NCBI GenBank assembly: GCA_964035545.1
Contig: OZ037768.1
Coordinates: 12,781,675 to 12,845,674, forward strand
DNA from: Bugula neritina
Lineage: Eukaryota; Animalia; Bryozoa
Length of the DNA stretch: 64,000 nt
Reading direction: 5' to 3'
A program made the position numbers and the translations under genes. The notes beneath the pieces are model-generated. The model was not told the origin of the DNA. It searched no databases and saw nothing but the letters and a program-made list of their open reading frames with translations. This document shows, piece after piece, positions 1 to 49,336 of the stretch. Position 1 is the first letter of the stretch; every line of letters begins with the position of its first letter.

Positions 1-6233
<6,233 letters not shown>

Positions 6234-8863: not shown

Positions 8864-11800
8864 GAGGCGTTCCGTTGACACAGCTGCTAGAGATGCTCAT
8901 TATTTTTACCAACAGCCAAAACGATAGTAACTATTCCTTGTCTTTAGTAGAAAACTATTTGATAACAAGAAATAATTTAATTTCCATACCAACTTATGAA
9001 GAATGTATAAACGCAGAGGTTGAAATAAGCAACAAGGGGAACATTGTGATCCTAGCGGACGTACAAGATAAGAGCATTGATTCATCAACCTACTGCAGTT
9101 CTACTAACAAAACCTGCCACTTCCTCTTCATGTATGTTCCCCAAGGGCAGACCACTAGCAGAGCATTTTGTGCCAACAGCGCTACGGGTGTATATAGATG
9201 GCTCCCTAATCCCACTCAATGAAAGCATAGAGAATTGTGGGCTTCTGTGGGCAGATGGGAGCGTGGATTATGTAGATCAGATGAATGATGCCGAGACATG
9301 TGACCTTTATGACCTCATCACATACATCACGCTGACAGGAAGGAGTTAGACCGCTTTACAGTCTCGTTCTCGACCTGGAGCTCAAGGTATACTCAGTTAT
9401 GTAACTTATATGGTCCTTAGTTGAATTTAACACTCCTAAGTTTGGTGAAAGCTAATACTCTAATAGAATTTAACAGAACATATTGCTTTGGTGATGCAGT
9501 AGAAATGGCAATGCTGTTCTCTGGGTGAAGTCTAGCAACGTGACGTGTCACAAAAATTTAAAAGGGCAATATCTGATTTCTTTTTTACCCTTTTGGTACC
9601 TGAGAGGCAGGTGTAGTAATGGAGAAACTTAGAAAAGCCTGTGTTCTAGATTAAAAATGAAGCAAAGGAGGTTGTGTTGTCGTAAAACTTTTAACCCACA
9701 CCCCAAATTAGGAATTTATAATGAAATTAAAATACTTAAGCAATCTAAATATGTTCATTACTGCTTTTAAAAAGTATCTGAGTTATCTATCCACTCTTTA
9801 GCAGTTGATAAAGTATTGCTAAAAACTTTGCAATCTAGAATTAATCTTGGAACTCACTGATGTGTGGTTAATATAGCTATATTGTTACTATAATATATTC
9901 TACACAGTATTATGCAGTCATGACTTATATGACTTAAGCTAAAGCCTATGTAACTCTTCAGCTGCTGCATGAATAGCTTTATATGAGACTTTATCCTCTT
10001 CTTCAAGTATTTCTGATATAATTCTTACTTCCTTCGTATTCTCATTAAAATAGTATTTATGTACTCATGATGTATATACTCATCATATTTAAATCGTTTG
10101 AACTTTCTCCTGCTTCCTCAATTTATTCTAGCCAATCATTTACGGCAGCAACGACAGTTTTGGCAAATTTTTGATAAAAAGCTCTAACTGTCAAAAGTTT
10201 TGACAGATTTAACAACTTTCAAAAAATGCAGCTCTTATAAATTCTGTTGAGCTCTTGTGCTTTTCTAATTTCATTTCCAGCTGCTTTGGGACAGCCTGTG
10301 GTAACCAGCAGCAGATGTACAGTACTGCAGGCCTACTGTACTGTACGGTAGGCCTGCAGTACTGTACTGTAGGCCTGCAGTACTGTACAGTAGGCCTGCA
10401 GTACTGTACTGTAGGCCTGCAGTACAGTACTGTAGGCCTACAGTACAGTACTGTAGGCCTACAGTACAGTACTGTAGGCCTACAGTACAGTACTGTAGAC
10501 CTACAGTACAGTACTGTAGGCCTACAGTACTGTACGGTAGACCTACAGTACTGTACTATATATACACCTATATAATACCATATGACTGCTGTTTTCTAAT
10601 TCATTCCGAAGAACTAGTCTGATTTACAACCGTAACAGATATTGCCCAAGAGTTACTCAATAGCTTTTGCAGCTTTATTTCACTGTACATGTATTCAAAC
10701 TGCAGAAAACACACAGTAAAACTCAACCTTAAGCTATAGGATGTCATTAGTAAACAAGTGGCCTAAGAACAGCTAATGTATTGCAACAGCCAATGAAAGC
10801 AGTCGGAATTAATTAGACTAAAATTAGGATTTTTATTTGGTGACTTGAACAGCTTACAAATTGCGCAATAAAAATGAAACTAATAGTAGAAACAGCATGC
10901 TGAAAAATAAGAAATATCCCTGTTTTGCTTTTTAAAGTTACTAATGGTCAACTTTGTGATGGGATTTTACTATAAATGAAAAGCTATATCAATTATTGAT
11001 GACTTATAAGTTCTCCTATAGCTGTAGCAGTGTTGAGATGGTCTCCTGTTGGCTGTGCCGGTTGCTACTACACTCATGCATGCACGCAGACAGAGATTAT
11101 GTCTACTGAACTTCTGACAATCTTTCGCTAGCTGACTTTGTATATAGATGACTACTGTTATTACTCCTTAAACTATTCCAGACTGTATACATGTCATTGT
11201 CCTCTTGGAGTTAACTCTTTACTATCTATTATGGGGCATGTTATTGGAGCAAAAAACTTTGCTTTAGCAATTTGTAACGTATTGCTAGAAATTGCTGGAA
11301 CTCAATAATGTGTGGTGGTTAACAAAGCCTTATTCTTCTTATAATATCTTTTTTACACTTTATAAAAGTCTTTCGGCTTATATGCCATAAGCTAAAAGCT
11401 TTTCTAACTTTTGATAGTCAGTATTATTTATGCTGAGTGTGTACTACAATCTGCTATTTCGGCTGCTTTGAAACTCCTGATCATGCCATATACTGTGTTG
11501 AGACCAGAATTTCGTCAATTACCAAAACAACACATTGTTGGCTACATCTTGCATGTAGCTGCTGCAAAGAATGAAATCTACAAACACGCACTTTATTGTT
11601 ACAATTGCTTGAACAATATTTAACTTTACTATTGAGCAATTGAGAAATCTACCATTTAAAGTTGTTTATGAGATTTCATTGATTGGCCTTTGTACATACT
11701 TTCAGTAACAATTGTTTTCTATCCACCCCTTTTGTTAATGTTAATATTTGTATTTAATTTCGCAAGTCTATGTATATACTCTGTAGTGTAGAGATGATAA

Positions 11801-14675: not shown

Positions 14676-15222
14676 AGTAGTATAGGAAGCCACTTTTCAA
14701 CTAGTTTACATCGTCCGTAGAATTGTATAGGGCATTTTAAAATAGTTTACATCGTCCGTAGAATTGTATAGGGCATTTTAAAATAGTTTACATCGTCCGT
14801 AGAATTGTATAGGGCATTTTAAAATAGTTTACATCGCACTTGAGGAGGCATAGTCGTTTAGAAATAGTTTACAGTCTTTGTTAGATTCATAGCTACCAAG
14901 ACTGTCTCTGCATTTATTATAACGGTTTGGCATACTTTCTCAAGCCTTATTGATAATTGCATTGATATACTGTAATTTGCATGACATTGCATTATGTGGT
15001 TATGTAAGATGTTTTGTAAATAGTATTATTGTGCTGTTTTCCTTTATGTTATGAATAGACCTTATCTTTGTGGCTTTGCAAGCAACCAGTATGGTTAATG
15101 TAATAGTCATATTGAATCTTTATAAAGCTATTGTATATATCATCAGTCTTGAAGATGTTGAGTGTTCTAAATAGATATATACTATTGAACTTCCCATACA
15201 ATCCGATTACATACACTAATAC
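14676..15222 (+). repeat. Polinton left TIR (547 bp, cut by an LTR insertion), with a 41-bp x3 subterminal tandem repeat at 14702-14837
   Basis: Reverse complement of 39568-40130. Differences I could see: one substitution and a 16-bp deletion. Confidence 0.95.
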
Positions 15223-15798
15223 TGTAGTGAATTTTGCCAGTTCACTATTATTATGTGTGGGTCAACTTAAACAAAGCCACTGCACCAGGTTGTTTACGCT
15301 AAGATAACTTTATTATTTACACAAATACAAGAAGGTTATTTACTGCTAGCATGAATAGCAAACGATTACATAATTAGTGAGCTTTAATACACAACTACTC
15401 TAAATGAAGTCCCAAGCTGCTCTGCCGGCTAGCTACTCAGCGCACTGCAACTACGAGTAGCTAGCTCCACCTGCTATCAATTAGTGTGACTGTCCTGATT
15501 GGTGGTTACTAGTGGTGCCACTGCTGTCCATAGCTACAATCCGACAGGGTCGAACTCACAATATAATAAACCATATACACTGCGTTTCCATTATCGCATT
15601 ATGCGAATGGATTTTTTCATCCAGCTAATGGAAACAGTTACATCGGATGAAACCGCAACTATAAGGTAATGCAAACCACAAACCACAAATAATCCGTACG
15701 AAGCATTCATTCGCATTATGTGCAGTCATGGAAACGCAGTGATAGAGTGAACCTTTTCGATTAACACAATAATAATTGCACTACTAAAATCCATCACA
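15223..15798 (-). repeat. 3' LTR of Gypsy copy 1 (contains a MITE); PPT-like tract at 15799-15810
   Basis: 15223-15502 matches 22508-22787 with ~4 differences. The pre-LTR motif cttttcgat-purines-TGTGATGGATTTT parallels that of copy 2. Confidence 0.8.
15578..15741. mobile_element. MITE with CACTGCGTTTCCA TIRs and 3-bp TSD ATA (Harbinger- or CACTA-like)
   Basis: TIRs and ATA duplication visible. TIR resembles those of the MITEs at 59345 and 60943. Confidence 0.8.
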
Positions 15799-16549
15799 CT
15801 CGCCACACCTATCGAAAAGTACACTCTACGATTGATACTTGCATGACGACATAAAAAGGATATAAAATAAAATAAAATAAAAGATCAAAACAACAACAGG
15901 AATGAGAGAACACAAAATATGTATTCAAAATGATTTCCACATTGTAACACGATCGATCCGGGTCTGTCACAGGGTAGAGGGTCTCTCACCAAATAATGTA
16001 GGGTAGCATGAACTTAGTGAGAAGGGGAGGTACTGTTTCACACTCATCTAGTCGAAACCAAGCGATGGGGGTCGAGGAGTCCCCAGAAAAATCAAGCGTG
16101 GCAAAGGAATCTCTCCAAAGGGGGAGAGAAGGAAAGGGGGTTGGAGAGTACAAAGGAATCTCTCCAAAGGGGGGGGGGAGATGGGGGGGTTGACTGGTCT
16201 CTTTAATACCAACATCCACACTCATCGTCGTCGAATTCCCAAAAAGGAGGAAAGGAAAGGCTTCTTCATCTTGACTTCTATATTTACTTTTTACTTCATG
16301 CAGGAATCTTTAATATTACTTCTTCTTCTTATTATTCTTTTATACGGCTTTATTATTAGAGTGTAGCCACAGGAGAGAAAAGAGAGGAGCTACTCTGTCT
16401 ATACCGGAACGTAGTCGCCAGGAGAGGAGAGGGAAGAACTACTGTGTCAGTTGTCTCTGGCACTTCTGTTATGACGATCATCAGCACTGCTGTCATGTCG
16501 CTACAAGAGTCTAGTCAAGCAGCCAGCATCTAGTCGACAAATGAGATGA

Positions 16550-17055
16550 ATGATGTGACTGCGCTACGCCAGGAGAAGGAATTTGGCCCCGCCATTACAG
16601 TCTCACCTGCAACAGAATGCCAGCAACTGTTGAAGGGGTTTGCACTTGTCAGTACGACACCTCGACTGAGTCTTGCAATCACTAACCACTGATTAATAAT
16701 TAAATCATGTGGTCGACCGCCCCACTCAAGTCGTCAGTGAATCACCTGACTTGGGAAATCAACTTTATCGTTATGATAAAGCGAGACTGATTTAGGCTAC
16801 CAGCTTGAATTCTACTTAATTAATAGAATTATACTAGTAGACTTACCATAAGACAGCCCTGACTTTAGTCTGCTGCCCACTTAGGCTACGTAGTGCGCCA
16901 GCCTGCCAAGTACGTGCGTGCACGTTGGCAGTTGAATCAGAAAAGAACGCTTTTCGCAGTGAAAGTGATTGTATAATACCCCTTTCACTAGCGAGCTGAC
17001 TTCGCTCTTTTCTTACCCCCGGTGGTGTTTTGTATTACACCACTGGGGTAGGCAA
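16550..17055 (-). ncRNA. Densely structured RNA element in the 3' region of Gypsy copy 1 (function unknown)
   Basis: About 10 consecutive hairpins. G-U pairs on the minus strand become A-C mismatches on the plus strand. Confidence 0.55.
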
Positions 17056-17056
17056 C

Positions 17057-20000
17057 TCACAATTGCGTCTCCTTATATCTTGGAAATGCAACTCTCAATT
17101 GCTCGTCCCCCCAGATTTCTTTTATGATAGCTGATGGATGTTTTTCCACTGCATCACACAAGAAATCTTTTAAATAAGATGGAGGCGCCCTAGTGCGTTG
17201 CCTACGCTCCAACTGCACTGGGGAATTTGCTACGACTGGTGACTCTTCCATTCCACCACGGGTGATGTCGCCAGTACGGGGGGGGGGTCCACCAGTACGG
17301 GTGGCCCTCCCCTAGCTGCCTCTTCCTCATTATTTTGAGGAATTTCCATCTCATCCGGGACGATGGGCCTGTCGACCGGCTCCACAGGTGGTGGGGCCGG
17401 CTCTGACAGGTCTTCAGGTGTGTCGACCTCCTCTTCCTGGGGTGGAGGAGGTTGGGGCTGGTCGGCTGACGCATCAGCCGCCCCGTCCTGGTCTGGCAGT
17501 ATCTCCTCGATCTCTCGGTACGCCATGGGTCGCCCCCTCATAGGAGGGCGCCTAGCTGGCTCTAAGAGAGGAGGTGCTTGACCTGCCGCATCAGGACTTG
17601 CCCAGTGAGGTTTCAGCCGTGCCTCGTTCTGGATCGACACTTGTCCAGACCGTTCCACTTTATAGGTGTGATTTGGCATCACCTCAATTATGCAGTAGGG
17701 ACCTACGAACTTCGGCTGCAACTTGGCTGCCTGTCCGCGCCTGCGGCGATGACTGGTCATCCAGACCCAATCCCCCACCTTGTATAAAGGTGGATCGTCA
17801 GAGTCACCACTCCTGACCTGCCACTGCTGCTCACGTAGCACCTCGTGAGCCGTCCCCATGCATTTTACGAGCTTGTCCACGTAGTCGTGGACATTGCTCT
17901 CGGAAGTCGGAACATGATAGGTTACGTGCTCAGGAACCCTGATTTCTCTCCCCAGCATGAGAAAATTAGGGGTCTCCAGTGTACTGGAGTGAGGGGTACT
18001 ACGGTACGCTCGCATGATCTGCGGCAACACCAAGTCCCACTCTTCCTGGCTCCTACCGATAAGCAGGCTTTTCAGAGAGTCCCCTAGCATTCGGTTGTTC
18101 CGCTCCACAACCCCGTTCCCTTGCCGGTGATACGGGGTCGTCCGACTCTGGTTTACCCCCCACACTTTACAGAGATCGCTCATGTGTTGCGACTGAAACT
18201 GGGCGCCTTGGTCAGAGTGTATCTGCTCCGGCAAGCCGAAATAGCAGAACACCTGCTGATCCAAGGCTCTGGCCACCGAGGGGGCCGACGCATCTGGAAT
18301 AGCCAGTGCATCAGCCCACCGCGTGAAATGGTCAGTTAATACCAGTATCCAGTTATTACCTCTCGCTGTTGTGGGCATGGGGCCTACCAGATCGACAGCA
18401 ACCACCTGCCACGGACGGCCGGCATTGAGGCGACGCCTCCCTGCGGTCTCAGTGGGGCGGCCATGCTTGCTAGCTTGGCACACCTCGCACTTCCGCACCC
18501 GGAGTCGGACATCCCGGGTCATACCGGGCCAAAACCACTGGAGTTGAAGACACCTAGTCACCCGGCTAGCTCCTGCGTGAGCTTGCTTATGGGTGTCCCA
18601 GATCAACACCCGCCTCAGAGCTGACGGGCAGACTACCCTCTCTCGTTCACTGCGATTGGTGCCGGCTGCCAACGTGATCGTTAGCAGCCCATCGCTGTTG
18701 AACCTGAGGGAGTCCCAGCGGTCACAGAAGTACTTAAACTCAGTACTCTTCACTCGCTGTTCGGCCTCACTCGGCCGCCGTCCCTCCTTCTTGGCCCGGA
18801 CTAGGTCAGCTACCACTCCTGGTAGCGTAGCCTGGAGCCGACATAGCTCCCTGACGTTCCGAAGCAACGTGGGGTTTGCGTGAAGGTTGTTAACAGCTTC
18901 GTTAGGAGGTTCAGACAGGAGTTGCCCTTTCTCCCAGCTGTATACACCCGCTTTCCCCGACTGCGCTTTGACGTCCGAGCGAGGGGGTCCACCGTCCCTG
19001 CGCTCGAAATTCTGGCACTGCTTACACCCATCTGCCTGGCGGCGGCTGAGTTCATCTGCATTACCGTGTTTCTTATCGGGTCGATGCTCGATCCGATAAG
19101 AAAACTCTGCCAGGATCTCTAGCCAGCGCGCTACTTGGCTTGATGGTTCTGCCCGTCGACACAGCCATATCAGGGACGCATGATCCGTCCGAAGCCGGAA
19201 TGTGCGCCCATATAGATATGGTCTAAAGTGTTTGACCGCCTTGACTACTGCCAAGAGTTCCCTCCTGGTTGTACAGTGGTTCTTCTCAGGCGCCGACAGG
19301 GCCTTGCTATAGTAAGCCACCACCACCTCGCGACCATCTTGGACCTGCGATAGCACAGCCCCCACATTATGGTTACTGGCATCAGTATCCAAAATGTACT
19401 CCTTCGCAGGGTCAGGATACGCCAAGATGGGTGCTTCCACCAGGCGATCCTTCAGGTGGTCAAATGCCTTCTGCTCAGCCTGCGTCCACTGCCATCACAC
19501 CCCCTTTGCGGTCAGCCGATTTAAGGGCTGTGCAACTCCGGCGAAGTCTGGTATGTACTGACGATAGTACCCTACCAGCCCCAGGAATGCCCGCAATTCA
19601 GGGAGGTCGACAGGGACGGCCCAGTCCCTCACAGTCCGTACCTTCTCGGGGTCGGTGGCGACCCCGTCTCGACCAACTACATGGCCCAGGTACTTAACCT
19701 CGCGTTGCAGTAATGCACACTTCGAGGGCTTTAGCTTCAGGCTTGCAGCTCGGAGTCTGTCGAACACCTCCCTGAGTCGACTGACATGTGTGGCGAAGTC
19801 GGGGGAGATGACGATGACATCATCGAGATAGATGAGCAAGGTCTTCCAGTGCAGTCCACTCAGGACCTGCTCCATGAGTCGCTGGAAGGTGGCTGGTGCG
19901 GACGTAAGTCCGAATGGCAACACCTTCCATTTCCAGAGCCCATCCCGCGTTATAAACGCGGCCTTGTCCTGTGCTTCAGGACTCAGGGGCACCTGCCAAT

Positions 20001-21605
20001 ACCCGCTTAGCAAGTCCAACGTGCTGAAGAACTTGCTACCAGCTAAGGCATCGAGCGACTCATCGATCCTCAGGAGAGGGTAAGCGTCCTGGATGGTCAC
20101 GCTGTTCAGCCTGCGATAGTCAACGCAAAACCTCCAGCTACTATCCTTTTTCCGAACCAGGACGACTGGAGAACTCCAGGCCCCATGGCCTGGCTCAATC
20201 ATGTCCCGGTTCAGAAGGTCTTGCACCTGACGGCTCACTTCTCTCTCCTTCTCAGGACCTAACCGGCGGGTCGGCTGCCGAATTGGCGCCGTCTCCGCCG
20301 CCAGGGGTATCTCATGACGAACAGTCTTAGTCAGACCCATGTCATGGTCGCTGCAACTAAACACGTGCTTGTACTCAGAGAGTAGCCGCACCATCACCAG
20401 GCGTTCTCGCTTGCTCTCACAGCCATCACAGGCATCCTCGTACAACTCTGCTACGTGTTCAGGCACCGGCCCCCTGCCGTCTCTAGTGGGTACTCCCCAG
20501 GCGTCGTCCGCCGTTTCCAGCGCGGGCCCTACATCCTCCTCTTGCACGGAGTGGAACTTCCCTACTAGAGACCCAGCCGGTAATTCTACCGGCTCCGTGA
20601 AAGGGTTTACGCGCTGGACCAGGAACTCCCCCCGCTCATCCAGTCTATTCAGACTGTTAGCGAGCTGGACGCCCCCCAGTGCACCTTCCACCACTCCGAG
20701 CTCGGAGATTTCCCTACAGTTCACTCTGCAGCGAACTGTAGCCCGGGAGCGCCCAGGTACAGTTCAGCGCTGTACCACCTGCACTCCCCCCACCAAATCG
20801 GTCGACACAGGCCAGCTCACGCCCCGCCATCACTACTGCCGACTTGCTAAAGTCGATGTAGCACCTGTGTCGCTTCAGAAATGGCATGCCCAAGATGGCA
20901 TCCTCCTTGAGTTGACTGACGATGAAGGTCTCACTGATCGTCTGATCACGGACTCTACCAGTCAACTGGATTACCCCATAGAAGGGAATACACGACCCGT
21001 CCGCCAACGTGCCGTGCTCCCCTTCATATGGTTCTAGGCTAGCCCTATCCCTGGCACCGAGGGTGTCGAATAGACGTCGACTCAGTAGATTTGTGGTGCA
21101 CCCAGTATCCAACAGGAATGTGACAGCTTTGCCAGCAAGTTTGCCGGGGAGGAAATAGCTGCTTCCATATGGCTGAGCGCTCACTGAGCGATTTGTCTCT
21201 TGAGGCGACACCTCATGTGCATGGAGTTGGGGGATGCACCTGTGCTTTTCGGTTGCGAGGGGGTCGTCGACGTTGCATGGGCGGGCAGGGTACGTCTCGG
21301 TCTCGCTCACACACGGGTGGCCGAGTGAATTCTCGGACTGATGCTTGTGTGGGCAACCGAGGAAAATCCCTGTTGTGCTCCCACTCGTCGTTCACTCCCT
21401 CATCAAGCAAACCTTCAAAGCGGTTTTTGAGTGCCCAAGCCGGAGGTATTGGTGGGCCTTGCGGCCTACTCACTTTCCTTGGGGCTTGCCACTCTGGCGA
21501 AGGCGGCCTCCTCACTCGGTGGGGTGTGGGCCTTAGCCTCTGCCTTGGGGGGTTAAACTGGGGCCCACGGTAGGCGGAGGTTACCGTGGGCCGTCGCTGT
21601 TTAAC
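17057..21605 (-). pseudogene. pol: Gypsy pol (protease LLDTGC, RT YLDD, RNase H, integrase HHCC/DDE, GPY), disrupted
   Basis: ORFs 21213-21629, 20714-21310, 19495-20724, 17230-19440 and 17057-17251 are split by frameshifts and a TGA at 19495-19497. Closely similar to copy 2 pol. Confidence 0.93.
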
Positions 21606-22452
21606 CGCCTCCCACTGCCGCGGGGGCAACTTCGTATGAAGTGCCCACCACTACCACAGCCCCAGCATACGGGGCTGCGCCTGTCGTCGACAGCTACCGA
21701 CGACCTCCTGGGTCTCTCAGCTGTCGCCTGCTGGCGCAGTTGCTTGATCTCGGCTAACAGTTCTCGAATCAAGCTCGTGGTCAAGCTAGTAGATTTGTCT
21801 GCTGTTGCCGCTGCGACCTGTACAGCTGTCTTCGCTGGCGACGTCGACACGTCGTCTGCCCCAACCTGCTGTACTGTCGCACAGGTCGACTTGCACTGTC
21901 GGCTTGGAAATAGGCATTCCCAAGCCTTAGAGCTCTCTCCATAGTCTCAACTTCGGCCACCAGCAGATGCTGTTTCAGACCGAGGTTGTTAATAGACTGG
22001 AGGAATGCATCCAGTGCTAGGCTCTGTCGACTGTCGGCAGGCAAGTCGCTGTAAGCAACTTGTGCCAGTCGTTCGACTGCGGTAGCATGCTCTCGCAGAT
22101 TGGTTTTAGGATTTCTCCTAAGACTCTGCAGTTGCACGCGAGCATCTCGAGCGGTTAATCCAAACCGAGCTCGTAGTGCTTCAAATATGTCATCAACATT
22201 CTGGCTTATCCCATAGGGTTTAGCCGGCCCTGTCAGACATAACCGCAGCTGGATCAGAGTAACCCTGTTCGGCCATCCGCAGATGTCCGCCACATCACTA
22301 AACTCAGTGATGAATTGCTCCACATCTTCTTCCCCTGAGAAGATGGAAGCCCGCAAGTGGTACCTGTCCATAGGCAGCGCTGGGCCGCCTATGTGATCCT
22401 CCTCTACTGCTGCTGGCTCCTGTCTGGGCGCGTCGACGACTTCGTCGGCCAT
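21581..22452 (-). pseudogene. gag: Gypsy gag with CCHC knuckle (CWGCGSGGHFIRSC), one frameshift
   Basis: ORFs 21781-22452 and 21581-21850 are homologous to copy 2 gag. Confidence 0.9.
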
Positions 22453-22488
22453 CTTACTCCCTGGCTAGGAGCATTTGTATTAAGTGGA

Positions 22489-22506
22489 ATCCCACTGCTG
22501 CCACCA
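22489..22506 (-). promoter_or_regulatory. Primer-binding site, tRNA-Leu type (TGGTGGCAGCAGTGGGAT)
   Basis: Lies immediately inside the 5' LTR and is complementary to the 3' end of tRNA-Leu(AAG/TAG). Confidence 0.85.
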
Positions 22507-22507
22507 C

Positions 22508-23101
22508 TGTAGTGAATTTTGCCAGTTCACTATTATTATGTGTGGGTCAACTTAAACAAAGCCACTGCACCGGGTTGTTTACGCTAAGATAACTTTATTA
22601 TTTACACAAATACAAGAAGGTTATTTACTGCTAGCATGAATAGAAGACGATTACATAATTAGTGAGCTTTAATACACAACTACTCTAAATGAAGTCCCAA
22701 GCTGCTCTGCCGGCTAGCTACTCAGCGCACTGCAACTACGAGTAGCTAGCTCCACCTGCTATCAATTAGTGTGCCTGTCCTGATTGGCTAGCGTCAGTGG
22801 TGCCACTGTCGACTGTAAGATATTGTCGGATAACAGTCCACGCCGAGTCGTCTCTGTCGATACTAATTAACTCCATCACCATAAGCATAATCACTAGCAT
22901 CTGCTACTAAGCAGCTAACTGCCAGTGCATTAGTAGCTAGCAATACTTGTCCAGCCAAGTACAAGAGAGATTGTACGCATTCCAATTGTCAGCTATTATG
23001 ATAATTGATCTTTAATACTTATAGCCATTATGCCAAGCGTATAGAGAGCAAGCCATGAAGAGTTATCCTTTCGATAATAACATAATCTAAAATCCATTAC
23101 A
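22508..23101 (-). repeat. 5' LTR of Gypsy copy 1 (594 bp)
   Basis: TG...CA ends, adjacent PBS, ATAT flank. It interrupts the ATPase reading frame at 23101/23102. Confidence 0.85.
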
Positions 23102-28172: not shown

Positions 28173-28730
28173 TGTAATGGATTTTCACCCTCTTTTAGTT
28201 TCGAAATAACAGCGTGCAACAGTATATTATAAATACTGTTGCGTATCATTCTTAATTCTGTAATTATAGTTAAGTAAGTTAGCTTGCTAATGCCTAAGTA
28301 TGGTAATTACTGTTAAAGCTCAACATAATGTAATTTTACTGAAATACGCATTCTGAAGTTATGTAATATTTCTTTTACTAATGTTGCTTCTTTTGTGTGT
28401 GTCCTTTGTTGCTGAGATCGGCATTTCGGTCTTCCGAAATGCCGATGTGCCGAAAATCGGCGTTTCGGCATTTCGGAGTCCCGAAATGCCGATATTCGGC
28501 ATTTCGGAACCCCGATCTCGGCAACAAAGGAATGTCTTTGTCTCGCTTGTATATAAAAGCCAGCGAGTTCCAGTGTAGTTCAGACTACTACTGGAGCTCG
28601 CTGGTAGTAGGACCACATAAGCTGTATTTGATGCTAATAAAGTTATCTTCATTCGTATTCAGAATACTTGGCTTATTCTCTCTAGAGCATGTAGGCACTA
28701 GTTGCATTCAAAACCCACAAGTTTACTACA
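28173..28730 (+). repeat. 5' LTR of copy 2, with TATA (28550-28559) and AATAAA (28636-28641)
   Basis: TGTAA...CTACA direct repeat. Confidence 0.96.
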
Positions 28731-28731
28731 T

Positions 28732-28749
28732 TGGTGGCAGCGGTGGGAT
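28732..28749 (+). promoter_or_regulatory. PBS, tRNA-Leu (TGGTGGCAGCGGTGGGAT)
   Basis: Complementary to the canonical tRNA-Leu 3' end ATCCCACCGCTGCCA-CCA. Confidence 0.88.
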
Positions 28750-28780
28750 TTTCGAATAACTAGTTGCCGAGCGGCACGCA

Positions 28781-29686
28781 ATGGCCCCAGGGGACACAGC
28801 GCCTGAGGCAGCAACACCACCAGCCCTCACTGTTGAGGCGCTGGTCACAGCCCTCCAGGGATTGCGGGGGCAAGGACAGGCATCACCTGGTGACAGGTAT
28901 CGCCTCCAGCCCCCGAATTTCGGAGGAGAAGGAGACGTAGAGCAATTCATCAGGGAGTTCCAGGATGTGGCCACCATCGCTGAATGGCCAGTACCGGTGC
29001 GCATCCTCCAACTTCGGGCCTGTCTGACCGGCCGGGCTAAGAGCTTCGCTCTTGGGCCTGATGAAGAGCACATCATGCGGGCTCTCAGAGCCCGGTTCGG
29101 CCTAACAACCGAAGAAGCAGCTGATCGTTTGCAGATCATGAGGAGGGACCGGAGGACTCCCCTGGAAGACCACGCAAACGAGGTAGAGCGCCTGGCTCAG
29201 GCTGCTTTCGATCACGCCACTGGCAATGACCGGAAGCGCCTCGTTTACAACGCGTTCTTCCGGAGCGTGAATCACCCGGACCTGCAGCGATACTGGCTGG
29301 CCGCCAAGGTCAACAGTATAGAGGAAGCGCTGGAAATGGGGAAGGCTTACTTCCAGGTGGAAGAGCCTAGGCGACCGAGCTATACAGCCCGCCAAGTGGT
29401 CGAGGAGCATGAGGAGACCACCCCACTTCCAACTCCACAGGTAGCAGCAGCTGCAACTAAATCACCCGAGCAGACGCAGCTCACCATGTTAATGGACATG
29501 ATGAAAGGCCTGCAGGCTACGGTGACGAAGTTGCAGAGCGAACAGGCGGATAGGCGGGCTCCCCGATCACGGGACAACCCTGTCCGCCCATCTCTGCTAA
29601 CCTGTTGGGGGTGCGGGGCGCAAGGGCACGTGAGGAGGCACTGCCCTAGAGGCCAAGGGCCTTTAAACACCCAAGGCTCACGGTAA
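28781..29686 (+). CDS. gag: Gag with CCHC zinc knuckle (CWGCGAQGHVRRHC)
   Basis: 301-aa ORF following the PBS. Confidence 0.93.
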   Translation: MAPGDTAPEAATPPALTVEALVTALQGLRGQGQASPGDRYRLQPPNFGGEGDVEQFIREFQDVATIAEWPVPVRILQLRACLTGRAKSFALGPDEEHIMRALRARFGLTTEEAADRLQIMRRDRRTPLEDHANEVERLAQAAFDHATGNDRKRLVYNAFFRSVNHPDLQRYWLAAKVNSIEEALEMGKAYFQVEEPRRPSYTARQVVEEHEETTPLPTPQVAAAATKSPEQTQLTMLMDMMKGLQATVTKLQSEQADRRAPRSRDNPVRPSLLTCWGCGAQGHVRRHCPRGQGPLNTQGSR

Positions 29687-29706
29687 CTTCCGCCAACCGT
29701 GGGCCT
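29662..29706 (+). promoter_or_regulatory. Predicted -1 programmed ribosomal frameshift signal (T TTA AAC plus 11-bp stem)
   Basis: The heptamer is in gag frame and the -1 frame is open into pol. Stem aggctcacggt/accgtgggcct. Equivalent signal in copy 1. Confidence 0.8.
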
Positions 29707-32700
29707 CACGCCAATCCCATCCGGGATAGGACTCAAAGAGGAGAAGAAGAGACCTCCACAGGGTCTGCCGATACCGAGTGGCAGAGGCCACGGAGACCTC
29801 GGAGACCGCAAGGTCTACCCGATCCTCCGGCCGTGTCACTCGAGACCCGGATGCAGCTAGAAGAAGCAGGATGGCAGGCACCTCGGAGATCTCGGAGGCC
29901 GCAAGGTCTACCCGATCCTCCAGCCTGGCCACTCCGTAACCGGTTCGCGGGGTTGCCCGAGGAGGTTGTGGAGAAGGATTCAGCTTACTCGCAAGAGTAC
30001 CCCAAGCTACCCTCCCGACCTCAGAAAACCCCCGTTGTCTCTAAGACGAAGAGGAGGCCCGCTGTGCGGACCCAAGTTGTGTCTCCCCCAGAGACTGACC
30101 GCTCCAGGAGCACCCAGCCGTATGGAAGCAGCTACTTCCTGCCCGGAAAGATTTCGGGTAAAGCTGCCACATTCCTACTGGATACTGGGTGCACTACCAA
30201 CCTGCTGAGTAGGCGTCTCTTTGACACTCTTGGTGCACGAGAGCGGGCGAGCCTCGAGCCGTATGAAGGTGCGCATGGTACGTTGGCGGACGGATCATGC
30301 ATTCCTTTCTACGGCGTCATTTCACTACCTGGACGCGTCCGTGATCAAGCAATTCACGAGACGTTCATAGTCAGCCAGCTGAAGGAGGACGCCATCCTGG
30401 GAATGCCGTTTCTGGAGAAACACCAGTGTCACATGGATTTCCAGAAGTCAGTGGTGGTGATGGCTGGGAAGGAGCTTGTCTGCGTCGACAAGTTCGGAAG
30501 GCCCTTGGTGGGCGGAGTCCAGGTAGTGCGGGACTGCACGGTTCCGGGGAGATCCCAGGCGACTCTTCGCTGCAGAGTCAACTGCAAGGGGATCGCCGGC
30601 CTGGGGGTGGTTGAGGGAACACACGGAGCGATCCGACTAGCAAACAGCCTGAATCGGCTAGATTGTCGGCAGGAGCTCCTCGTGCAGTGCATCAACCCCT
30701 TCACGGAACCTATCCGATTATCGGCTGGAGCGCTGGTGGGGAAGTACCACTCCATCCAGGAAGCGGATGTGGGTCCGGCACTGGAGACAGTGGCCGACAC
30801 CCAGGGTAAACCCCCTCACACCAGACGAGGAGCAGTCCCGGAGCATGTGGCTGACCTATACGATGGAGCGTGCGGAAACTGTACCAGTAGTACTGAACGC
30901 CAAGTACTGGCTCAACTACTTGCAGAGTACAGTGATGTCTTCAGTCGTGGCGATGAAGACATGGGGCTGACCAAGGTCATCTCCCACGAGATACCCCTGG
31001 CAGCCGGCACCACTCCCATCAGGCAGCCTACCCGGCGTCTAGGCCCGGAGAAGGAGAAGGAGGTGAGCCGACAGGTACAGGATCTTCTCGACCGGAATCT
31101 GATTGAGCCTGCCCACGGTGCGTGGAGCTCTCCAGTAGTCCTGGTCAAGAAGAAGGATGGTAGCTGGAGATTCTGCGTGGACTACCGCAGACTCAACAGC
31201 GTTACCATCCAGGACGCCTACCCTCTCCCACGGATAGATGAGTCTCTAGATGCCCTCGCGGGTAGCAAGTACTTCAGTACTTTGGATCTGCTTAGCGGGT
31301 ACTGGCAAGTACCCCTCAGTCCTGATGCCCAGGACAAAGCAGCATTCATCACTCGCGACGGGCTCTGGAAGTGGAAAGTACTGCCATTTGGACTAACGTC
31401 CGCTCCGGCAACTTTCCAACGGCTCATGGAGCAGGTCCTCAGTGGGTTACACTGGAAGACCCTCCTCATCTATCTAGACGACGTCATTGTCATTTCCCCA
31501 GACTTCTCGACTCATGTCAGTCGTCTGCGGGAGGTCTTTGACCGTCTCCGGGCAGCTGGACTGAAGCTGAAGCCCTCCAAGTGTGCACTCCTGCAGCCGG
31601 AAGTCACGTACCTTGGCCATGTGGTTGGCCGTGATGGGGTCGCTACCGACCCAGAGAAGGTACAGGCTGTGAAGGAGTGGACTGTCCCCCGTGACCTCCC
31701 TGAGTTGCGCGCGTTCCTGGGCCTAGTAGGGTACTACCGGCAGTACATACCTGGCTTCGCAGGAGTGGCTCAGCCGTTAAATCGGCTGACCGCAAAGGGG
31801 GTCCGGTGGCAGTGGACACAGGAGGAGCAGCAGGCATTTGACCACCTCAAGCAGCGGCTAATGGAGGCGCCAATTCTGGCGTATCCTGACCCAGCCCAAG
31901 AGTACATCCTGGACACTGACGCCAGCGACCACAGCGTGGGAGCTGTCCTGTCTCAAGTCCAGGGTGGAAGTGAGGTGGTCGTAGCTTACTACAGCAAGAC
32001 TCTCGCGGCCGCCGAGAAGAACTACTGCACCACTAGGAAGGAACTCCTAGCAGTAGTCAAGGCGGTCAAGCACTTTCGGCCATATCTGTATGGGAGAACG
32101 TTCCGTTTGCGAACAGACCATGCATCACTGATATGGCTGTGTAAACGTGCAGAGCCCTCGAGCCAGGTGGCTCGTTGGCTAGAGATTCTTGCCGAGTTCT
32201 CTTACCGGATAGAGCACCGTGCTGGCCGGAAGCACGGGAACGCCGACGGCATGAGCCGCCGGCCGGTAGGAGACTGTAAGCAGTGCCTGCACATTGAGAA
32301 GCGGGACGGGGGACCCGCTCGCCTTGACGTGGAAACAGAGTTAGGGGAGGGCGCCGTCTATCGGTGGGAGCACGGCCATCTTCGGACCGAAACCCACTCA
32401 GACGACGTCCAGGCGCTTCACGCCAACCCCACTCTATACCAGAATGTCAAGGAGCTGTGCCGACTCCAGGAGACGCTACCCGGTGCGGTAGCGGACATCT
32501 TCCGGGCCAAGAAGGAGGGCCGACGACCTAGCGAGGAACAGCAGCGGCAGGGAGACGTTGAGTTCCAACTCCTCTGTCGTCGCTGGGACGCCCTCAAGGT
32601 CAGTCCTGATGGCCTCCTGATGATAACGTTAGCAGCAGACAACCGTCAGCAGGAGAGGGACCGCGTCGTCTGTCCACGCGCCCTCCGACGGGAACTGATC

Positions 32701-34584
32701 TGGGACACCCATAAGCAGGCTCATTCTGGAGTCAGCCGGGTCATCAGGTGTCTGCGGCTGCGTTGGTATTGGCCCGGAATGACTCGGGACGTACGACTGC
32801 GGGTACGGCAATGCGAGGTCTGCCAAGCTAGTAAGCATGGCCGCCCCACGGAAACCACTGGTCGACGCCGGCTATACGCTGGTCGACCGTGGCAAGTAGT
32901 GGCGGTGGACCTCGTCGGGCCTATGCCGTTATCCGCCAGAGGGAACACCTGGATACTGGTGCTCACGGACCACTTCACCCGGTGGGCAGATGCTCTGGCT
33001 ATTCCAGACGCAACAGCCCCCACGGTGGCCCGGACCCTGGACCAACATGTGTTCTGTTACCTCGGTTTACCCGAGCAGATACATACGGACCAGGGTGCCC
33101 AGTTCCAGTCCCAGCTCATGGGAGACCTCTGCCGGATATGGGGGGTGAACCAGAGTCGGACCACCCCATATCACCCGCAAGGGAACGGAGTCGTCGAGCG
33201 GAACAACAGGATGTTGGGTGACGCCCTCAGGAGCCTGCTCCTTGGCCGAGGTCAGGAAGAATGGGACGTGGTGCTGCCGCAAATCATGCGGGCTTACCGC
33301 AGCACACCACACTCCGCCACGCAGGAGACCCCAAACTTCCTGATGCTAGGCCGAGAGACGCGGGTTCCGGAACACCTGACATACCATGTTCCTGCTCCCG
33401 AGTCACCGGTACACGAATATGTGGAGGGTCTGATAGACATCATGGGCAAAGCTCATGATGCACTGCGTACCCAGCAGTGGCAGACCCGCACAGAGGACTC
33501 GGAGGAGCCCCCGTTGTACCAGGTGGGAGACTGGGTCTGGATGGTGAGCTATCGTAGGCGACGCGGACAGTCGGCTAAGCTTCAGCCCAAGTTCGTCGGT
33601 CCCTACTGCGTGGTAGAGGTGCTGCCAAACCATACATACCGTGTGGAGCGCTCTGGACAGGTCTCAGTCCAGAGCGAGCAGCGCCTGAAGCCGTACCAGG
33701 CCAGCCCAGACGCGGTGGGTCAAGCCCCACCCCTCCTGGAGCCCCACCGCCAGCCCAGCCGTCGAGGACAGGCCACCCGCCCTCGAGAGGTGGAAATTGT
33801 GTTCCCCAGAGAGGCGGACCAGGAGCAAACCGCCCTGTTGGAGCAGCTGGAGCGACAACAGAGAGAGGAGCGGGAACAAGAACGACAGCAAGCCCTAGGA
33901 CCACCACCCCTCCAGGGGGAGGACACCCCCACCCGTGTTACGGGTGAAGGCGGGGACCCCCCTTCAGCGGTAGCTGAGGAGCCACCGGCACCAGCAGCGC
34001 CTATACAGCAGGAACGGAGTCAGAGGGCCAGAAGGCCCCCCAGATATCTGGCGGACTACCACGTGGGACACATGGAGATGTCCCCACAGAGGAGTGGTAC
34101 ACCCAGTACGGGTAAAAACTCCGAGCCTCAGTTGCAGAACAGCCCTGGCAGTACCGGACTTCTCCAAAAGCAATTACTCCCAGACCAGCACAGTCACCTG
34201 GACAACAGGTACCCAGCTCTTTCGGGTAATGTTGGTCGAGGTAGGTGGCGATACCCCATACCTATGACTGACTTGGACCCCCCTCCAGAAGAAGAAGATG
34301 AGGCCACGACCCTACTACCCACCCAGCTGATTGGAGATGGCGCTACCGCAGCCACCACCCAGCCTCTACGGGTAGCGCTGGCAAGACTGGGCAAGGAGCC
34401 TGGAGCACCAGGCGGCCAGATAGAAGAGAAGACCCAGCCGACCCACTCACAATTGCCCCGTCACGGGCAGAGTATGGCACTTCCTTACCGCGAGTGCGTC
34501 TTTGATAGTGCAATCCATGCCTGGTCCAGTATCCTTGACCAATGTACCGAAGAGATAGAAAGCCTGGTGCACCACCTCCAATGA
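29662..34584 (+). CDS. pol: Pol polyprotein (PR-RT-RNaseH-IN) with a long C-terminal extension
   Basis: Uninterrupted frame (ORF 29833-34584, open back to the slippery site) with DTG, YLDD, DAS, HHCC, DDE and GPY motifs. Confidence 0.95.
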   Translation, partial: FKHPRLTVTSANRGPHANPIRDRTQRGEEETSTGSADTEWQRPRRPRRPQGLPDPPAVSLETRMQLEEAGWQAPRRSRRPQGLPDPPAWPLRNRFAGLPEEVVEKDSAYSQEYPKLPSRPQKTPVVSKTKRRPAVRTQVVSPPETDRSRSTQPYGSSYFLPGKISGKAATFLLDTGCTTNLLSRRLFDTLGARERASLEPYEGAHGTLADGSCIPFYGVISLPGRVRDQAIHETFIVSQLKEDAILGMPFLEKHQCHMDFQKSVVVMAGKELVCVDKFGRPLVGGVQVVRDCTVPGRSQATLRCRVNCKGIAGLGVVEGTHGAIRLANSLNRLDCRQELLVQCINPFTEPIRLSAGALVGKYHSIQEADVGPALETVADTQGKPPHTRRGAVPEHVADLYDGACGNCTSSTERQVLAQLLAEYSDVFSRGDEDMGLTKVISHEIPLAAGTTPIRQPTRRLGPEKEKEVSRQVQDLLDRNLIEPAHGAWSSPVVLVKKKDGSWRFCVDYRRLNSVTIQDAYPLPRIDESLDALAGSKYFSTLDLLSGYWQVPLSPDAQDKAAFITRDGLWKWKVLPFGLTSAPATFQRLMEQVLSGLHWKTLLIYLDDVIVISPDFSTHVSRLREVFDRLRAAGLKLKPSKCALLQPEVTYLGHVVGRDGVATDPEKVQAVKEWTVPRDLPELRAFLGLVGYYRQYIPGFAGVAQPLNRLTAKGVRWQWTQEEQQAFDHLKQRLMEAPILAYPDPAQEYILDTDASDHSVGAVLSQVQGGSEVVVAYYSKTLAAAEKNYCTTRKELLAVVKAVKHFRPYLYGRTFRLRTDHASLIWLCKRAEPSSQVARWLEILAEFSYRIEHRAGRKHGNADGMSRRPVGDCKQCLHIEKRDGGPARLDVETELGEGAVYRWEHGHLRTETHSDDVQALHANPTLYQNVKELCRLQETLPGAVADIFRAKKEGRRPSEEQQRQGDVEFQLLCRRWDALKVSPDGLLMITLAADNRQQERDRVVCPRALRRELIWDTHKQAHSGVSRVIRCLRLRWYWPGMTRDVRLRVRQCEVCQASKHGRPTETTGRRRLYAGRPWQVVAVDLVGPMPLSARGNTWILVLTDHFTRWADALAIPDATAPTVARTLDQHVFCYLGLPEQIHTDQGAQFQSQLMGDLCRIWGVNQSRTTPYHPQGNGVVERNNRMLGDALRSLLLGRGQEEWDVVLPQIMRAYRSTPHSATQETPNFLMLGRETRVPEHLTYHVPAPESPVHEYVEGLIDIMGKAHDALRTQQWQTRTEDSEEPPLYQVGDWVWMVSYRRRRGQSAKLQPKFVGPYCVVEVLPNHTYRVERSGQVSVQSEQRLKPYQASPDAVGQAPPLLEPHRQPSRRGQATRPREVEIVFPREADQEQTALLEQLERQQREEREQERQQALGPPPLQGEDTPTRVTGEGGDPPSAVAEEPPAPAAPIQQERSQRARRPPRYLADYHVGHMEMSPQRSGTPSTGKNSEPQLQNSPGSTGLLQKQLLPDQHSHLDNRYPALSGNVGRGRWRYPIPMTDLDPPPEEEDEATTLLPTQLIGDGATAATTQPLRVALARLGKEPGAPGGQIEEKTQPTHSQLPRHGQSMALPYRECVFDSAIHAWSSILDQCTEEIESLVHHLQ

Positions 34585-34788
34585 CCAAACCGAACAATTA
34601 GGCATTAGCCGCCCGAACTGTATATATTATGGGTGCTACTACGATTGTTTATTGTGACACGCCTGATTAATCATAATACTTTTTCTGTTAACCACATATT
34701 TTCTACTGTTGTGTTTTATTTTTGACCTGTTTGTACAAACACCTTGTCTCTGTTATCGAAAAGGGGATGCTTTTCGATGGGGGGAGAA

Positions 34789-35346
34789 TGTAATGGATTT
34801 TCACCCTCTTTTAGTTTCGAAATAACAGCGTGCAACAGTATATTATAAATACTGTTGCGTATCATTCTTAATTCTGTAATTATAGTTAAGTAAGTTAGCT
34901 TGCTAATGCCTAAGTATGGTAATTACTGTTAAAGCTCAACATAATGTAATTTTACTGAAATACGCATTCTGAAGTTATGTAATATTTCTTTTACTAATGT
35001 TGCTTCTTTTGTGTGTGTCCTTTGTTGCTGAGATCGGCATTTCGGTCTTCCGAAATGCCGATGTGCCGAAAATCGGCGTTTCGGCATTTCGGAGTCCCGA
35101 AATGCCGATATTCGGCATTTCAGAACCCCGATCTCGGCAACAAAGGAATGTCTTTGTCTCGCTTGTGTATAAAAGCCAGCGAGTTCCAGTGTAGTTCAGA
35201 CTACTACTGGAGCTCGCTGGTAGTAGGACCACATAAGCTGTATTTGATGCTAATAAAGTTATCTTCATTCGTATTCAGAATACTTGGCTTATTCTCTCTA
35301 GAGCATGTAGGCACTAGTTGCATTCAAAACCCACAAGTTTACTACA
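34789..35346 (+). repeat. 3' LTR of copy 2
   Basis: Near-identical to 28173-28730. Confidence 0.96.
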
Positions 35347-39567: not shown

Positions 39568-40130
39568 GTATTAGTGTATGTAATCGGATTGTATGGGAAG
39601 TTCAATAGTATATATCTATTTAGAACACTCAACTAATCGCAGCAAACGCATCTTCAAGACTGATGATATATACAATAGCTTTATAAAGATTCAATATGAC
39701 TATTACATTAACCATACTGGTTGCTTGCAAAGCCACAAAGATAAGGTCTATTCATAACATAAAGGAAAACAGCACAATAATACTATTTACAAAACATCTT
39801 ACATAACCACATAATGCAATGTCATGCAAATTACAGTATATCAATGCAATTATCAATAAGGCTTGAGAAAGTATGCCAAACCGTTATAATAAATGCAGAG
39901 ACAGTCTTGGTAGCTATGAATCTAACAAAGACTGTAAACTATTTCTAAACGACTATGCCTCCTCAAGTGCGATGTAAACTATTTTAAAATGCCCTATACA
40001 ATTCTACGGACGATGTAAACTATTTTAAAATGCCCTATACAATTCTACGGACGATGTAAACTATTTTAAAATGCCCTATACAATTCTACTGACGATGTAA
40101 ACTAGTTGAAAAGTGGCTTCCTATACTACT
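39568..40130 (-). repeat. Polinton right TIR (matched part, 563 bp)
   Basis: Inverted copy of 14676-15222. Confidence 0.95.
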
Positions 40131-47550: not shown

Positions 47551-49336
47551 TCTCATTTTGGTTTGCAGTTGATTAGTAAATGATTCAAACCTGATGTTGG
47601 TTAGTAGGTTGTATATTTCAGTTTCAAAGTGGACTAATAAACCCCACCAAATCCAACATATAAAACACAAAACTCCTCCAGCATATAAAAGTCAACATAT
47701 GGAAAAACTCCCACTCAGTAATAAATTGGTTTGAAAACATCAAGAACAAAAGCAGTAAGTCATTTATTACTTTTGACATATGCAATTTCTACCCATCAAT
47801 AACCGAAGACCTCCTTTACAAAGCCCTTTCCTTTGCGTCACACTTTACCAGCATACCAACTGAACACCAGGAAATAATTTTACACTCTAAAAAGTCCATT
47901 CTTATCTCCAATGGTGAGCAATGGACAAAAAAACACGACAGTAATTTTGATGTCACTATGGGAAGTTATGACGGCGCCGAAACCTGCCAACTAATTGGAA
48001 TATATTTGCTTAATCTATTAACTACTGAAATGAATATAGAATGTAATTTAGGCCTGTATAGAGATGATGGACTCATAGTTTGCGAAGGAACACCTAGACA
48101 CATAGAACAGAACAAAAAACAAATTTGCAACTTTTTTAGAAAATTTAATCTCTCAATCACAATAGAAGCCAATAAGAAAGTTGTAAACTTTCTAGATGTA
48201 ACATTCAACTTGACTAACCAATCCTATAAACCCTATACAAAACCTGGAAACACTATCCTCTACGTTCACAAACAAAGCGACCACCCACCTGCAGTATTGA
48301 AAAACATACCAGAAAATATAAATAGAAGACTTAGCTCACTATCCTCCAATGAAGAAGAGTTTAAAACCACCATACAACCGTACCAAGAAGCACTATCAAA
48401 CAGTGGATATGACTATAAATTAAAATATAACCCGACACCTAAATCCAACAACAATAATAGAAATAGAAATAGAAACATATTGTGGTACAACCCACCTTTT
48501 AGTTCAACAGTAAAAACCAAAATAGGGAAGAAATTTCTTCAAATCATCGACAAATGCTTTCCACCATCCAACCAACTAAGTAAAATTTTCAATAGGAAAA
48601 CTATGAAAATTAGCTATTCATGCATGCCCAACATGAAAAATATTATTGATGGCTCGAACCATCACAAACTTAAAACCGCACACACCCCTACTACCGCTAC
48701 TAAACTAAATAACTCACGCAATGTAACTGCAAACAACCTTCCCACTGTCCACTAAATGGTAAATGCTTATACAAAGACGTAATATACCAAGCAACTGTAA
48801 CAAGACATGACAATAATTCCAGCCATTCATACATAGGACTCTGTTCGACTACCTTCAAAACCAGATTCAATAACCACAAAGCCTCTTTCCTACATGCAGA
48901 TAAAGCTAACAGCACGCAACTCAGCAGACACATCTGGAATTTAAAAGACAACAAAACGAAATTCAGCTTAAAATGGAATATTTTAAAGATTTGCAAATCA
49001 TACTCAAACCTAACCAATAGATGTAATTTATGCAACTATGAGAAGTATATAATTTTAAAACAACCGGAATTATCTTCCCTCAACAAACGAAAAGAGCTTT
49101 CCACCACGTGTAGACATAAACGCAAATTTTTACTTGCGCACTTAACAGACGCTAGTTAAAACATTCCAGCGTAGTAATACACTAACAATACTAATTTCAA
49201 AACAAAATCACTCAAGCGTACACACAACGACCTGATGATCGTAGCTCGCACTACGTGAAACAATATTGTAGTCAATAGAATGAAGATCTAAGTTTATTTT
49301 TCTATCCAAAATTGTATTAGTACCAAAAAAAAAAAA
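47551..49336 (+). mobile_element. 5'-truncated Penelope-like retroelement (RT plus C-terminal GIY-YIG) with an inverted 5' fragment
   Basis: FDI..FYPSI, MGSYDGAE, GLYRDDG, FLDV, then CNC..CPL..KCL, VIY..YIG and C..C..EK. Frameshift near 48710, stop at 49158. 47551-47640 encodes upstream PLE sequence on the minus strand. Confidence 0.9.
49229..49273 (+). ncRNA. Minimal type I hammerhead ribozyme (Penelope-associated)
   Basis: gac-CTGATGA-tcgtag(ctcgca)ctacgt-GAAA-caatattg-TA-gtc, with a palindromic stem III and GUA cleavage triplet. Confidence 0.82.

What the first reader, a model, noticed from the sequence alone, without database searches (positions are those of the whole stretch)
16550..17055. 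~500-nt hairpin-packed RNA directly downstream of pol, in the position where env would sit
Seen: back-to-back stems at about 17014-17050, 16939-17013 (enclosing 16958-16989), 16904-16930, 16808-16830, 16756-16793, 16727-16753, 16686-16714, 16640-16678, 16610-16632 and 16556-16602. In at least four stems the imperfect pairs are G-U on the minus (element sense) strand but A-C on the plus strand, which points to RNA-level selection. The block starts right after the pol stop and ends at an AUG (16595, gtaATGG). I recognise no known motif in it, and I saw no equivalent in copy 2. Inference: an IRES-like element for a third ORF, a packaging/export signal, or an undescribed structured RNA.
Basis: partly seen in the sequence, partly recalled or inferred. 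Interest (0 to 1): 0.78.

Follow-up and report, generated by a model that had tools for sequence, protein, structure and literature searches.

The report
Conserved RNA fold after Gypsy pol
Right after the last gene of a decayed Gypsy-type jumping gene lies a stretch predicted to fold into about ten RNA hairpins, kept in related copies while the neighbouring DNA is replaced; it matches no catalogued RNA family and is likely a signal that helps the element's full-length RNA survive and leave the nucleus.

Summary
The block is real. It sits in the 3' non-coding tail of a broken Ty3/Gypsy LTR retrotransposon (minus strand), 7 nt after the pol-frame TGA (17059-17057). It folds far better than shuffles (z -8.1 sense, -7.1 antisense). 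A related contig from another sample aligns over 16568-17150 at about 90% while the next 247 nt are replaced. More distant contigs keep only a core, 16760-17013, whose ends match helix ends. The 37 listed variable sites avoid paired positions on the sense strand (p about 0.004-0.005), less so on the antisense strand (p 0.07-0.11). True covariation could not be tested, because the variants are unphased. G-U asymmetry alone is not significant. No Rfam, ribozyme, ENE or sense-strand CTE motif was found. The IRES/third-ORF idea is not supported: AUG 16595 opens 21 codons and no downstream protein has homologues. Both Gypsy copies also fold better than chance along gag-pol, so the block is the peak of an element-wide trend. 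Best reading: a cis-acting post-transcriptional element, like MusD MTE or the avian DR in position and size (0.45). The scan noted similar post-pol modules on other DNA; none matched by sequence.

The parts
16550..17050 (-). Structured 3'-UTR block, about ten hairpins, starting 7 nt after the pol-frame stop
   Evidence: z -8.06; helices
16760..17013 (-). Conserved core (254 nt), from the first base of the long 17013/16939 stem to the end of the 16782/16762 hairpin
   Evidence: Contigs at about 83% identity align only here (records 3, 4, 11/17, 22); z -6.5 sense vs -3.2 antisense
16834..16858 (-). 25-nt stretch with no listed variant; holds a U1-type 5' splice-site heptamer GGUAAGU (16847-16841); its antisense strand holds AAGACA (16850-16855)
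   Evidence: (40 best rows of 105 shown)
16939..17013 (-). 75-nt stem with internal loop (11-bp and 15-bp helices, P 0.94-0.99)
16797..16840 (-). 17-bp hairpin, P 0.97; two G-U pairs of the window copy are Watson-Crick in many relatives
16658..16739 (-). 30-bp interrupted stem, P 0.91
   Evidence: variant at 16718 keeps its pair
17052..17205 (-). Further helices inside the last pol codons, covering the stop codon (17102-17082/17072-17052; 17168-17145/17138-17113; alternative 17205-17181/17072-17048)
17057..17059 (-). TGA ending the frame that carries the integrase C-terminal RxRxxPxYL motif
16530..16595 (-). AUG 16595 with a 21-codon frame; not a credible ORF3
16184..16320 (-). Second conserved island of the 3' UTR, unstructured, bounded by two AUUAAA hexamers (16314, 16207)
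15799..15810 (-). Degenerate polypurine-tract-like stretch before the 3' LTR
   Evidence: compared with copy 2
15223..15798 (-). 3' LTR (TGTGATGG...CTACA) with a MITE-like insert at 15578-15741
17230..22452 (-). gag (CCHC) and pol (PR-RT-RH-IN, Ty3/Gypsy order), broken by stops and frameshifts
22489..22506 (-). Primer-binding site (tRNA-Leu type by recall, not tested)
22508..23101 (-). 5' LTR; last 304 nt are 96.7% identical to the 3' LTR, the upstream part differs

Best explanation
The block is a family-conserved stretch in the 3' untranslated tail of a Ty3/Gypsy retrotransposon that is predicted to fold on the element's own RNA strand and likely acts as a cis-acting post-transcriptional element, binding host RNA-processing factors so that the unspliced genomic RNA is stabilised and exported from the nucleus. 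Shown: its position between the pol stop and the 3' LTR, folding beyond chance, conservation above the neighbouring UTR, variable sites avoiding sense-strand pairs, no downstream ORF, no catalogued RNA family. Inferred: that it is transcribed and folds this way in cells; that the single-stranded and invariant parts (25-nt stretch with GGUAAGU, internal loop of the 75-nt stem) are the binding sites; that the job is export or stability and not packaging. About 0.85 that it is a selected RNA structure, about 0.5 that its job is of this kind.
For: Folding z -8.06; tile 16800-17049 is the strongest of 29 tiles along the element, 53% below shuffles. One related contig (X4 record 16, 1298 nt; same sample as X3 record 10) aligns at 16568-17150 with 55 other letters and 12 gaps, then replaces 247 and 264 nt of flanking UTR with unrelated letters. 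More distant contigs align only within 16760-17014, with 43-246 unaligned letters beyond (records 4, 11/17, 22). Mean pairing probability at 37 variable sites is 0.50-0.51 vs 0.67-0.68 for the core: p 0.004-0.005, 2 of 253 circular shifts; antisense p 0.07-0.11, 22-29 of 253. Variable sites fall in 10 of 114 firm pairs vs 18 of 75 open sites, Fisher p 0.006; antisense p 0.51. The core folds better on sense (z -6.5 vs -3.2). Precedent by position and size: MusD MTE, about 400 nt of multiple stem-loops next to the 3' LTR (PMC4588558, part 1 of 2 read); ALV/RSV DR (PMC9143442 passages); SERV-K MER11 element, a complex stem-loop CTE without an obvious NXF1 motif (PMC11379458 passages).
Against: No function was measured and position is the only link to export. 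No two-sided compensatory change could be shown, because variants are unphased and only 40 of 105 rows were shown. Of 10 variants at firm pairs, 4 keep and 6 break the pair when taken singly. The NXF1-binding AAGACA motif (PMC4174252 passages) is on the antisense strand only. Both Gypsy copies fold 10-12% better than synonymous-codon shuffles along pol, so part of the signal is element-wide. Copy 2, a related element with intact ORFs and 99.6% identical LTRs, lacks the block. G-U asymmetry is not significant. Support comes from at most 3 samples of 2 studies, one of which may be the window's source.
Confidence: 0.45

Rival explanations
1. It is a packaging, dimerisation or reverse-transcription signal recognised by the element's own Gag or RT.
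For: Same structural and conservation evidence. The avian DR also aids packaging (PMC9143442 passage). Two loops carry the self-complementary hexamer UAAUUA (16702, 16822), the only 6-nt loop-loop match found.
Against: Those loops are A/U-only and variable in relatives (16815, 16820). Copy 2, with related Gag and Pol, lacks the block. Packaging signals are usually 5' (recalled).
Confidence: 0.15
2. It has no specific job and is the non-coding continuation of an element-wide tendency to fold (genome-scale ordered RNA structure), for example to resist host RNA surveillance.
For: 12 of 21 gag-pol tiles of copy 1 have sense z below -2. Copy 2 pol is 12.3% below dinucleotide and 11.6% below synonymous-codon shuffles, while a LINE RT in the same window is not (-6.0% and -0.4%).
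Against: The next 500 nt of the same UTR are unstructured (z +1.8) and replaced in a relative, whereas the core keeps primary sequence with helix-aligned ends and an invariant stretch. General folding needs no fixed sequence.
Confidence: 0.15
3. The core presents a real or decoy 5' splice site (GGUAAGU) to U1 snRNP, to control splicing or to steer polyadenylation past the A(A/U)UAAA hexamers downstream, like the RSV NRS.
For: The heptamer lies in the stretch with no listed variant. It appears in 100 of 3000 core shuffles. The UTR has 3 poly(A) hexamers vs 0.7 expected, 24 of 1000 shuffles. NRS precedent: PMC9143442 passage.
Against: Post hoc motif. Its two G are predicted paired (unpaired P under 0.1). 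The hexamer count ignores local A-richness. No joint starting at this site among the 15 shown of 49 and none, though these contigs are DNA or of unknown kind.
Confidence: 0.1
4. It is a self-cleaving ribozyme or a precursor of small RNAs.
For: Two interrupted stems of 75 and 82 nt resemble pre-miRNA in size. One CUGANGA heptamer at 16737.
Against: No Rfam hit. No GAAA within 80 nt of the heptamer; recalled HDV-like, twister and pistol descriptors give 0 hits on both strands. No Pol III B-box in the sense scan. No tRNA.
Confidence: 0.07
5. It is an IRES driving a third ORF from AUG 16595.
For: An AUG lies inside the last stem of the block. Drosophila gypsy has IRESs (PMC4276936 passage).
Against: 21 codons only. 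The AUG frame read with X at stops finds 0 of 1.84 billion proteins at E 0.001. The 107-aa frame 15989-16309 finds none among proteins of 58-188 aa. Downstream DNA is replaced in a relative, with length changes of 40 and 32 nt. The conserved core ends 165 nt before the AUG.
Confidence: 0.05

Closest known systems
MusD transport element (MTE) of the mouse MusD retrotransposon (PMC4588558, part 1 of 2 read)
   Same: [quoted passage not shown]
   Different: MusD is a type-D retroviral relative in mice; this is Ty3/Gypsy in an invertebrate. MTE needs a kissing loop and a pseudoknot; only A/U 5-6-mer loop matches were found here. No sequence comparison was possible and export was not tested.
MPMV CTE and avian DR (PMC9143442, PMC4174252, passages)
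   Same: Structured cis element in the 3' UTR of the unspliced RNA
   Different: CTE is a single hairpin with AAGACA loops; here AAGACA is antisense only, and the block has about ten helices.
ENE of Arabidopsis Evade/Copia93 (PMC12501189, passages)
   Same: Structured stabilising element in an LTR retrotransposon 3' UTR
   Different: ENE needs a U-rich internal loop; the internal loops here are purine-rich.
RSV negative regulator of splicing and RSV stability element (PMC9143442, passages)
   Same: Decoy-like 5' splice-site heptamer; element starting just after a stop codon ahead of a long 3' UTR
   Different: Both lie in or just after gag; RSE is CU-rich, which this block is not (C 22%, U 27%).

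Membership tests
Ty3/Gypsy LTR retrotransposon (host element) | LTRs, PBS, gag, pol in order PR-RT-RH-IN | tested here: met
RNA transport element (MTE/RTE/DR class) | Structured RNA between pol and 3' LTR on the sense strand | tested here: met
RNA transport element (MTE/RTE/DR class) | Promotes export or expression of unspliced RNA | not testable with these tools
   needs a reporter assay
MusD MTE | Kissing loop and pseudoknot | tested here: inconclusive
   one search found only A/U-rich 5-6-nt loop matches in one fold of one sequence
MPMV-type CTE | AAGACA loop on the sense strand | tested here: not met
   in the block it occurs on the antisense strand only
ENE | U-rich internal loop flanked by helices | tested here: not met
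   internal loops; no Rfam hit
IRES with downstream ORF | A conserved ORF after the structure | tested here: not met
   the third frame and the antisense 104-aa frame were scanned at most by Pfam
Known self-cleaving ribozymes | Catalytic-core sequence and fold | tested here: not met
   Rfam; recalled descriptors
RSV NRS-like decoy splice site | U1-type 5' splice-site sequence | tested here: met
   GGUAAGU at 16847-16841, chance 3%
RSV NRS-like decoy splice site | U1 binding with effect on splicing or polyadenylation | not testable with these tools
   no RNA reads held
Conserved structured RNA family | Significant covariation | tested here: inconclusive
   only unphased variants; no relatives could be fetched as loci

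The most novel reading that the evidence does not exclude
The 254-nt core is an undescribed RNA module carried by many Gypsy subfamilies of this animal. It is an export/processing element of an invertebrate Ty3/Gypsy lineage that uses a decoy U1 site in a folded scaffold, on a genome that is itself ordered end to end like persistent RNA viruses.
Probability: 0.25. Interest if true: 0.72.

Novelty: new variant of a known kind. Interest (0 to 1): 0.43.

Why it matters
How env-less animal Ty3/Gypsy elements get unspliced RNA past host nuclear retention is poorly known. The invertebrate example my searches returned, C. elegans Cer1, uses a protein (PMC10309623, title, abstract start and passages). 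A compact module with sharp conservation ends gives a directly testable RNA candidate and possibly a new Rfam-type family. The element-wide folding excess in both Gypsy copies is a second testable trait.

Tried and rejected
No whole genome is held, so copies could not be mined. Relatives as loci: none in viral contigs (the 120 loci of the 14-nt pattern give at most 39-nt matches, chance); none in metagenome contigs (0; 3 loci at 27-36% identity, not examined further); none in genome contigs (0; 1 locus, unlike outside the pattern). Close integrase relatives exist as proteins (144 hits, up to about 89% identity) but without DNA context. No RNA holder listed; this says nothing on expression. X6 has no cover over 15883-16491; not used as evidence. 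Rfam: nothing near a gathering score. ARAGORN: 0. The one-sequence covariance model finds only itself; next are a palindromic satellite (24 bits) and noise. TGTAATGG at 16599 as an LTR start: rejected; that base differs in relatives and the real 3' LTR starts at 15798. Stop-codon read-through at TGA 17059: a hairpin follows, but the frame closes 22 codons later. A Watson-Crick-only strand test had too few mismatches (2 G-U vs 0 A-C in the block; about even in gag-pol). Helix 16878-16872/16857-16851 is kept by both listed variants in it but depends on the fold window (P 0.13 in the core-only fold vs about 0.8). Literature: searches listed no paper describing such an element in an animal Ty3/Gypsy 3' UTR or genome-scale folding of such elements; the library lacks most subscription papers and I judged from listings. 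No supplements were read.

Full report
Setting. The finding lies in a Ty3/Gypsy LTR retrotransposon on the minus strand. It has a 5' LTR at 23101-22508, a primer-binding site, gag from 22452, pol with PR-RT-RH-IN domains broken by stops and frameshifts, and a 3' LTR at 15798-15223 with a MITE-like insert. The LTRs share their last 304 nt at 96.7% but differ upstream. The flanks are not a clean target duplication and come from different parts of a surrounding Polinton-like element (gene names recalled from the translations). The copy is therefore probably a chimera of two related insertions (inference). The window's long pol ORF stops at 17232-17230. The integrase RxRxxPxYL motif, also present in copy 2, lies in another frame ending at TGA 17059-17057. 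The block begins 7 nt later and fills the first 500 nt of a 1.25-kb non-coding tail.

Is the fold real? 16550-17055 folds at z -8.06 on the sense strand and -7.08 on the antisense strand, 0 of 100 shuffles each. Six of 11 intervals are firm in the ensemble and two are displaced by a 30-bp stem. Structure continues into the last pol codons, while the next 500 nt of UTR are unstructured (z +1.8). Of 56 scanned 506-nt windows outside the two Gypsy elements, only a palindromic satellite reaches z -6. Against uniqueness, both Gypsy copies fold better than chance along gag-pol: 12 of 21 tiles in copy 1 have sense z below -2, and copy 2 pol is 11.6% below synonymous-codon shuffles, against -0.4% for a LINE RT. 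The block is the highest of 29 tiles in copy 1 (53%). The G-U argument points the right way but is weak alone (p 0.18-0.48).

Relatives. No genome is held and the three collections gave no relatives. Public contigs of four runs (at most 3 samples, 2 studies) could be laid on the region. One 1298-nt contig aligns at 16568-17150 with 55 other letters and 12 gaps, then at 16320-16184 and 15919-15796; the two intervening stretches are replaced by 207 and 232 unrelated letters. More distant contigs (about 83-89%) align only inside 16760-17014. The 16760 end is seen with long unaligned flanks in two independent contigs and the 17013/17014 end in two, among 32 pieces shown with 4530 not shown. One search shows the same ends more often, but its stretch ended within 20 nt of them, so I do not count it. 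These ends coincide with the outer pair of the 75-nt stem and the end of the 16782/16762 hairpin. The core folds with a clear sense preference (z -6.5 vs -3.2).

Variation against structure. One search listed its 40 best-supported differences of 105, at 37 sites. These sites are less paired than the core average on the sense strand (0.50-0.51 vs 0.67-0.68; p 0.004-0.005; 2 of 253 circular shifts) and less clearly so on the antisense strand (p 0.07-0.11). Firm pairs hold 10 of 114 and open sites 18 of 75 (p 0.006; antisense p 0.51). Taken singly, 4 of the 10 variants at firm pairs keep pairing and 6 break it; some are at helix ends, and partners may be among the hidden rows. One keeper and one breaker are CpG transitions. 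The data are unphased, so compensatory change is neither shown nor excluded. No variant is listed in 16834-16858, which carries GGUAAGU (3% chance in shuffles, post hoc).

What it is not. No Rfam family, tRNA, recalled ribozyme core, ENE loop or sense-strand AAGACA. No copy in element 2, whose pol runs to about 200 nt from its LTR. No third ORF: AUG 16595 gives 21 codons and the longest AUG frame in the tail has 79. The AUG frame read with X at stops and the 107-aa frame have no homologues, although integrase relatives are plentiful in the collection searched.

Mechanism. [quoted passage not shown] Tested elements of this position and size are post-transcriptional: MusD MTE (PMC4588558, part 1 of 2 read), CTE and avian DR (PMC9143442 passages), SERV-K MER11 (PMC11379458 passages) and Evade ENE (PMC12501189 passages). 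I commit to export or stabilisation through host factors at 0.45. Packaging (0.15), generic folding (0.15), U1 decoy (0.10), ribozyme or small RNA (0.07) and IRES (0.05) follow. It works like an MTE-class element by inference; it is not filed as a member, since the CTE and ENE motifs fail and function is untested.

Novelty. Four paper searches listed no description of such an element in animal Ty3/Gypsy. Earlier notes of this scan report similar post-pol modules in other genomes; none matched by sequence, and they are unchecked. The kind is known from retroviruses and plant Copia; this fold and lineage appear new. Verdict: real, new variant of a known kind, interest 0.43.

Noticed in passing
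window 17230-22549 (-) and 28760-34584 (+): Both Gypsy copies fold better than dinucleotide and synonymous-codon shuffles along gag-pol (about 10-19%), unlike a LINE RT in the same window; resembles genome-scale ordered RNA structure.
   Followed up: partly
window 14676-40130: Polinton-like element with terminal inverted repeats (14676-15222 and 39568-40130, 97%) and DNA polymerase B-, ATPase-, capsid- and protease-like frames (names recalled from translations), holding both Gypsy insertions.
   Followed up: partly
window 28173-35346 (+): Young Gypsy copy with 99.6% identical LTRs, ATAT target duplication, intact gag and a 1644-aa pol frame with about 180 extra residues after the RxRxxPxYL motif; its LTRs contain an internal inverted repeat (z about -7 to -11).
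   Followed up: partly
window 16850-16855 (+): The NXF1-binding hexamer AAGACA lies antisense within the invariant stretch; probably chance, relevant only if an antisense RNA exists.
   Followed up: partly
window 16184-16320: Second conserved but unstructured UTR island bounded by two AUUAAA hexamers; overlapped by open frames on both strands (15986-16309 minus, 16052-16366 plus); the plus frame was scanned only by Pfam.
   Followed up: partly
window 15578-15741: 164-nt MITE-like inverted repeat inside the 3' LTR, very high depth in all four runs laid.
   Followed up: no
window 10317-10560: Palindromic satellite of about 21-nt units, z -24.
   Followed up: no
window 1-1331: 15-nt-period tandem repeat, C/A-rich, possibly a Thr/Ala/Pro-rich coding repeat.
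   Followed up: no
window 47664-48755 (+) and 52283-54079 (-): Two further reverse-transcriptase frames, Penelope-like and LINE-like by recall.
   Followed up: no
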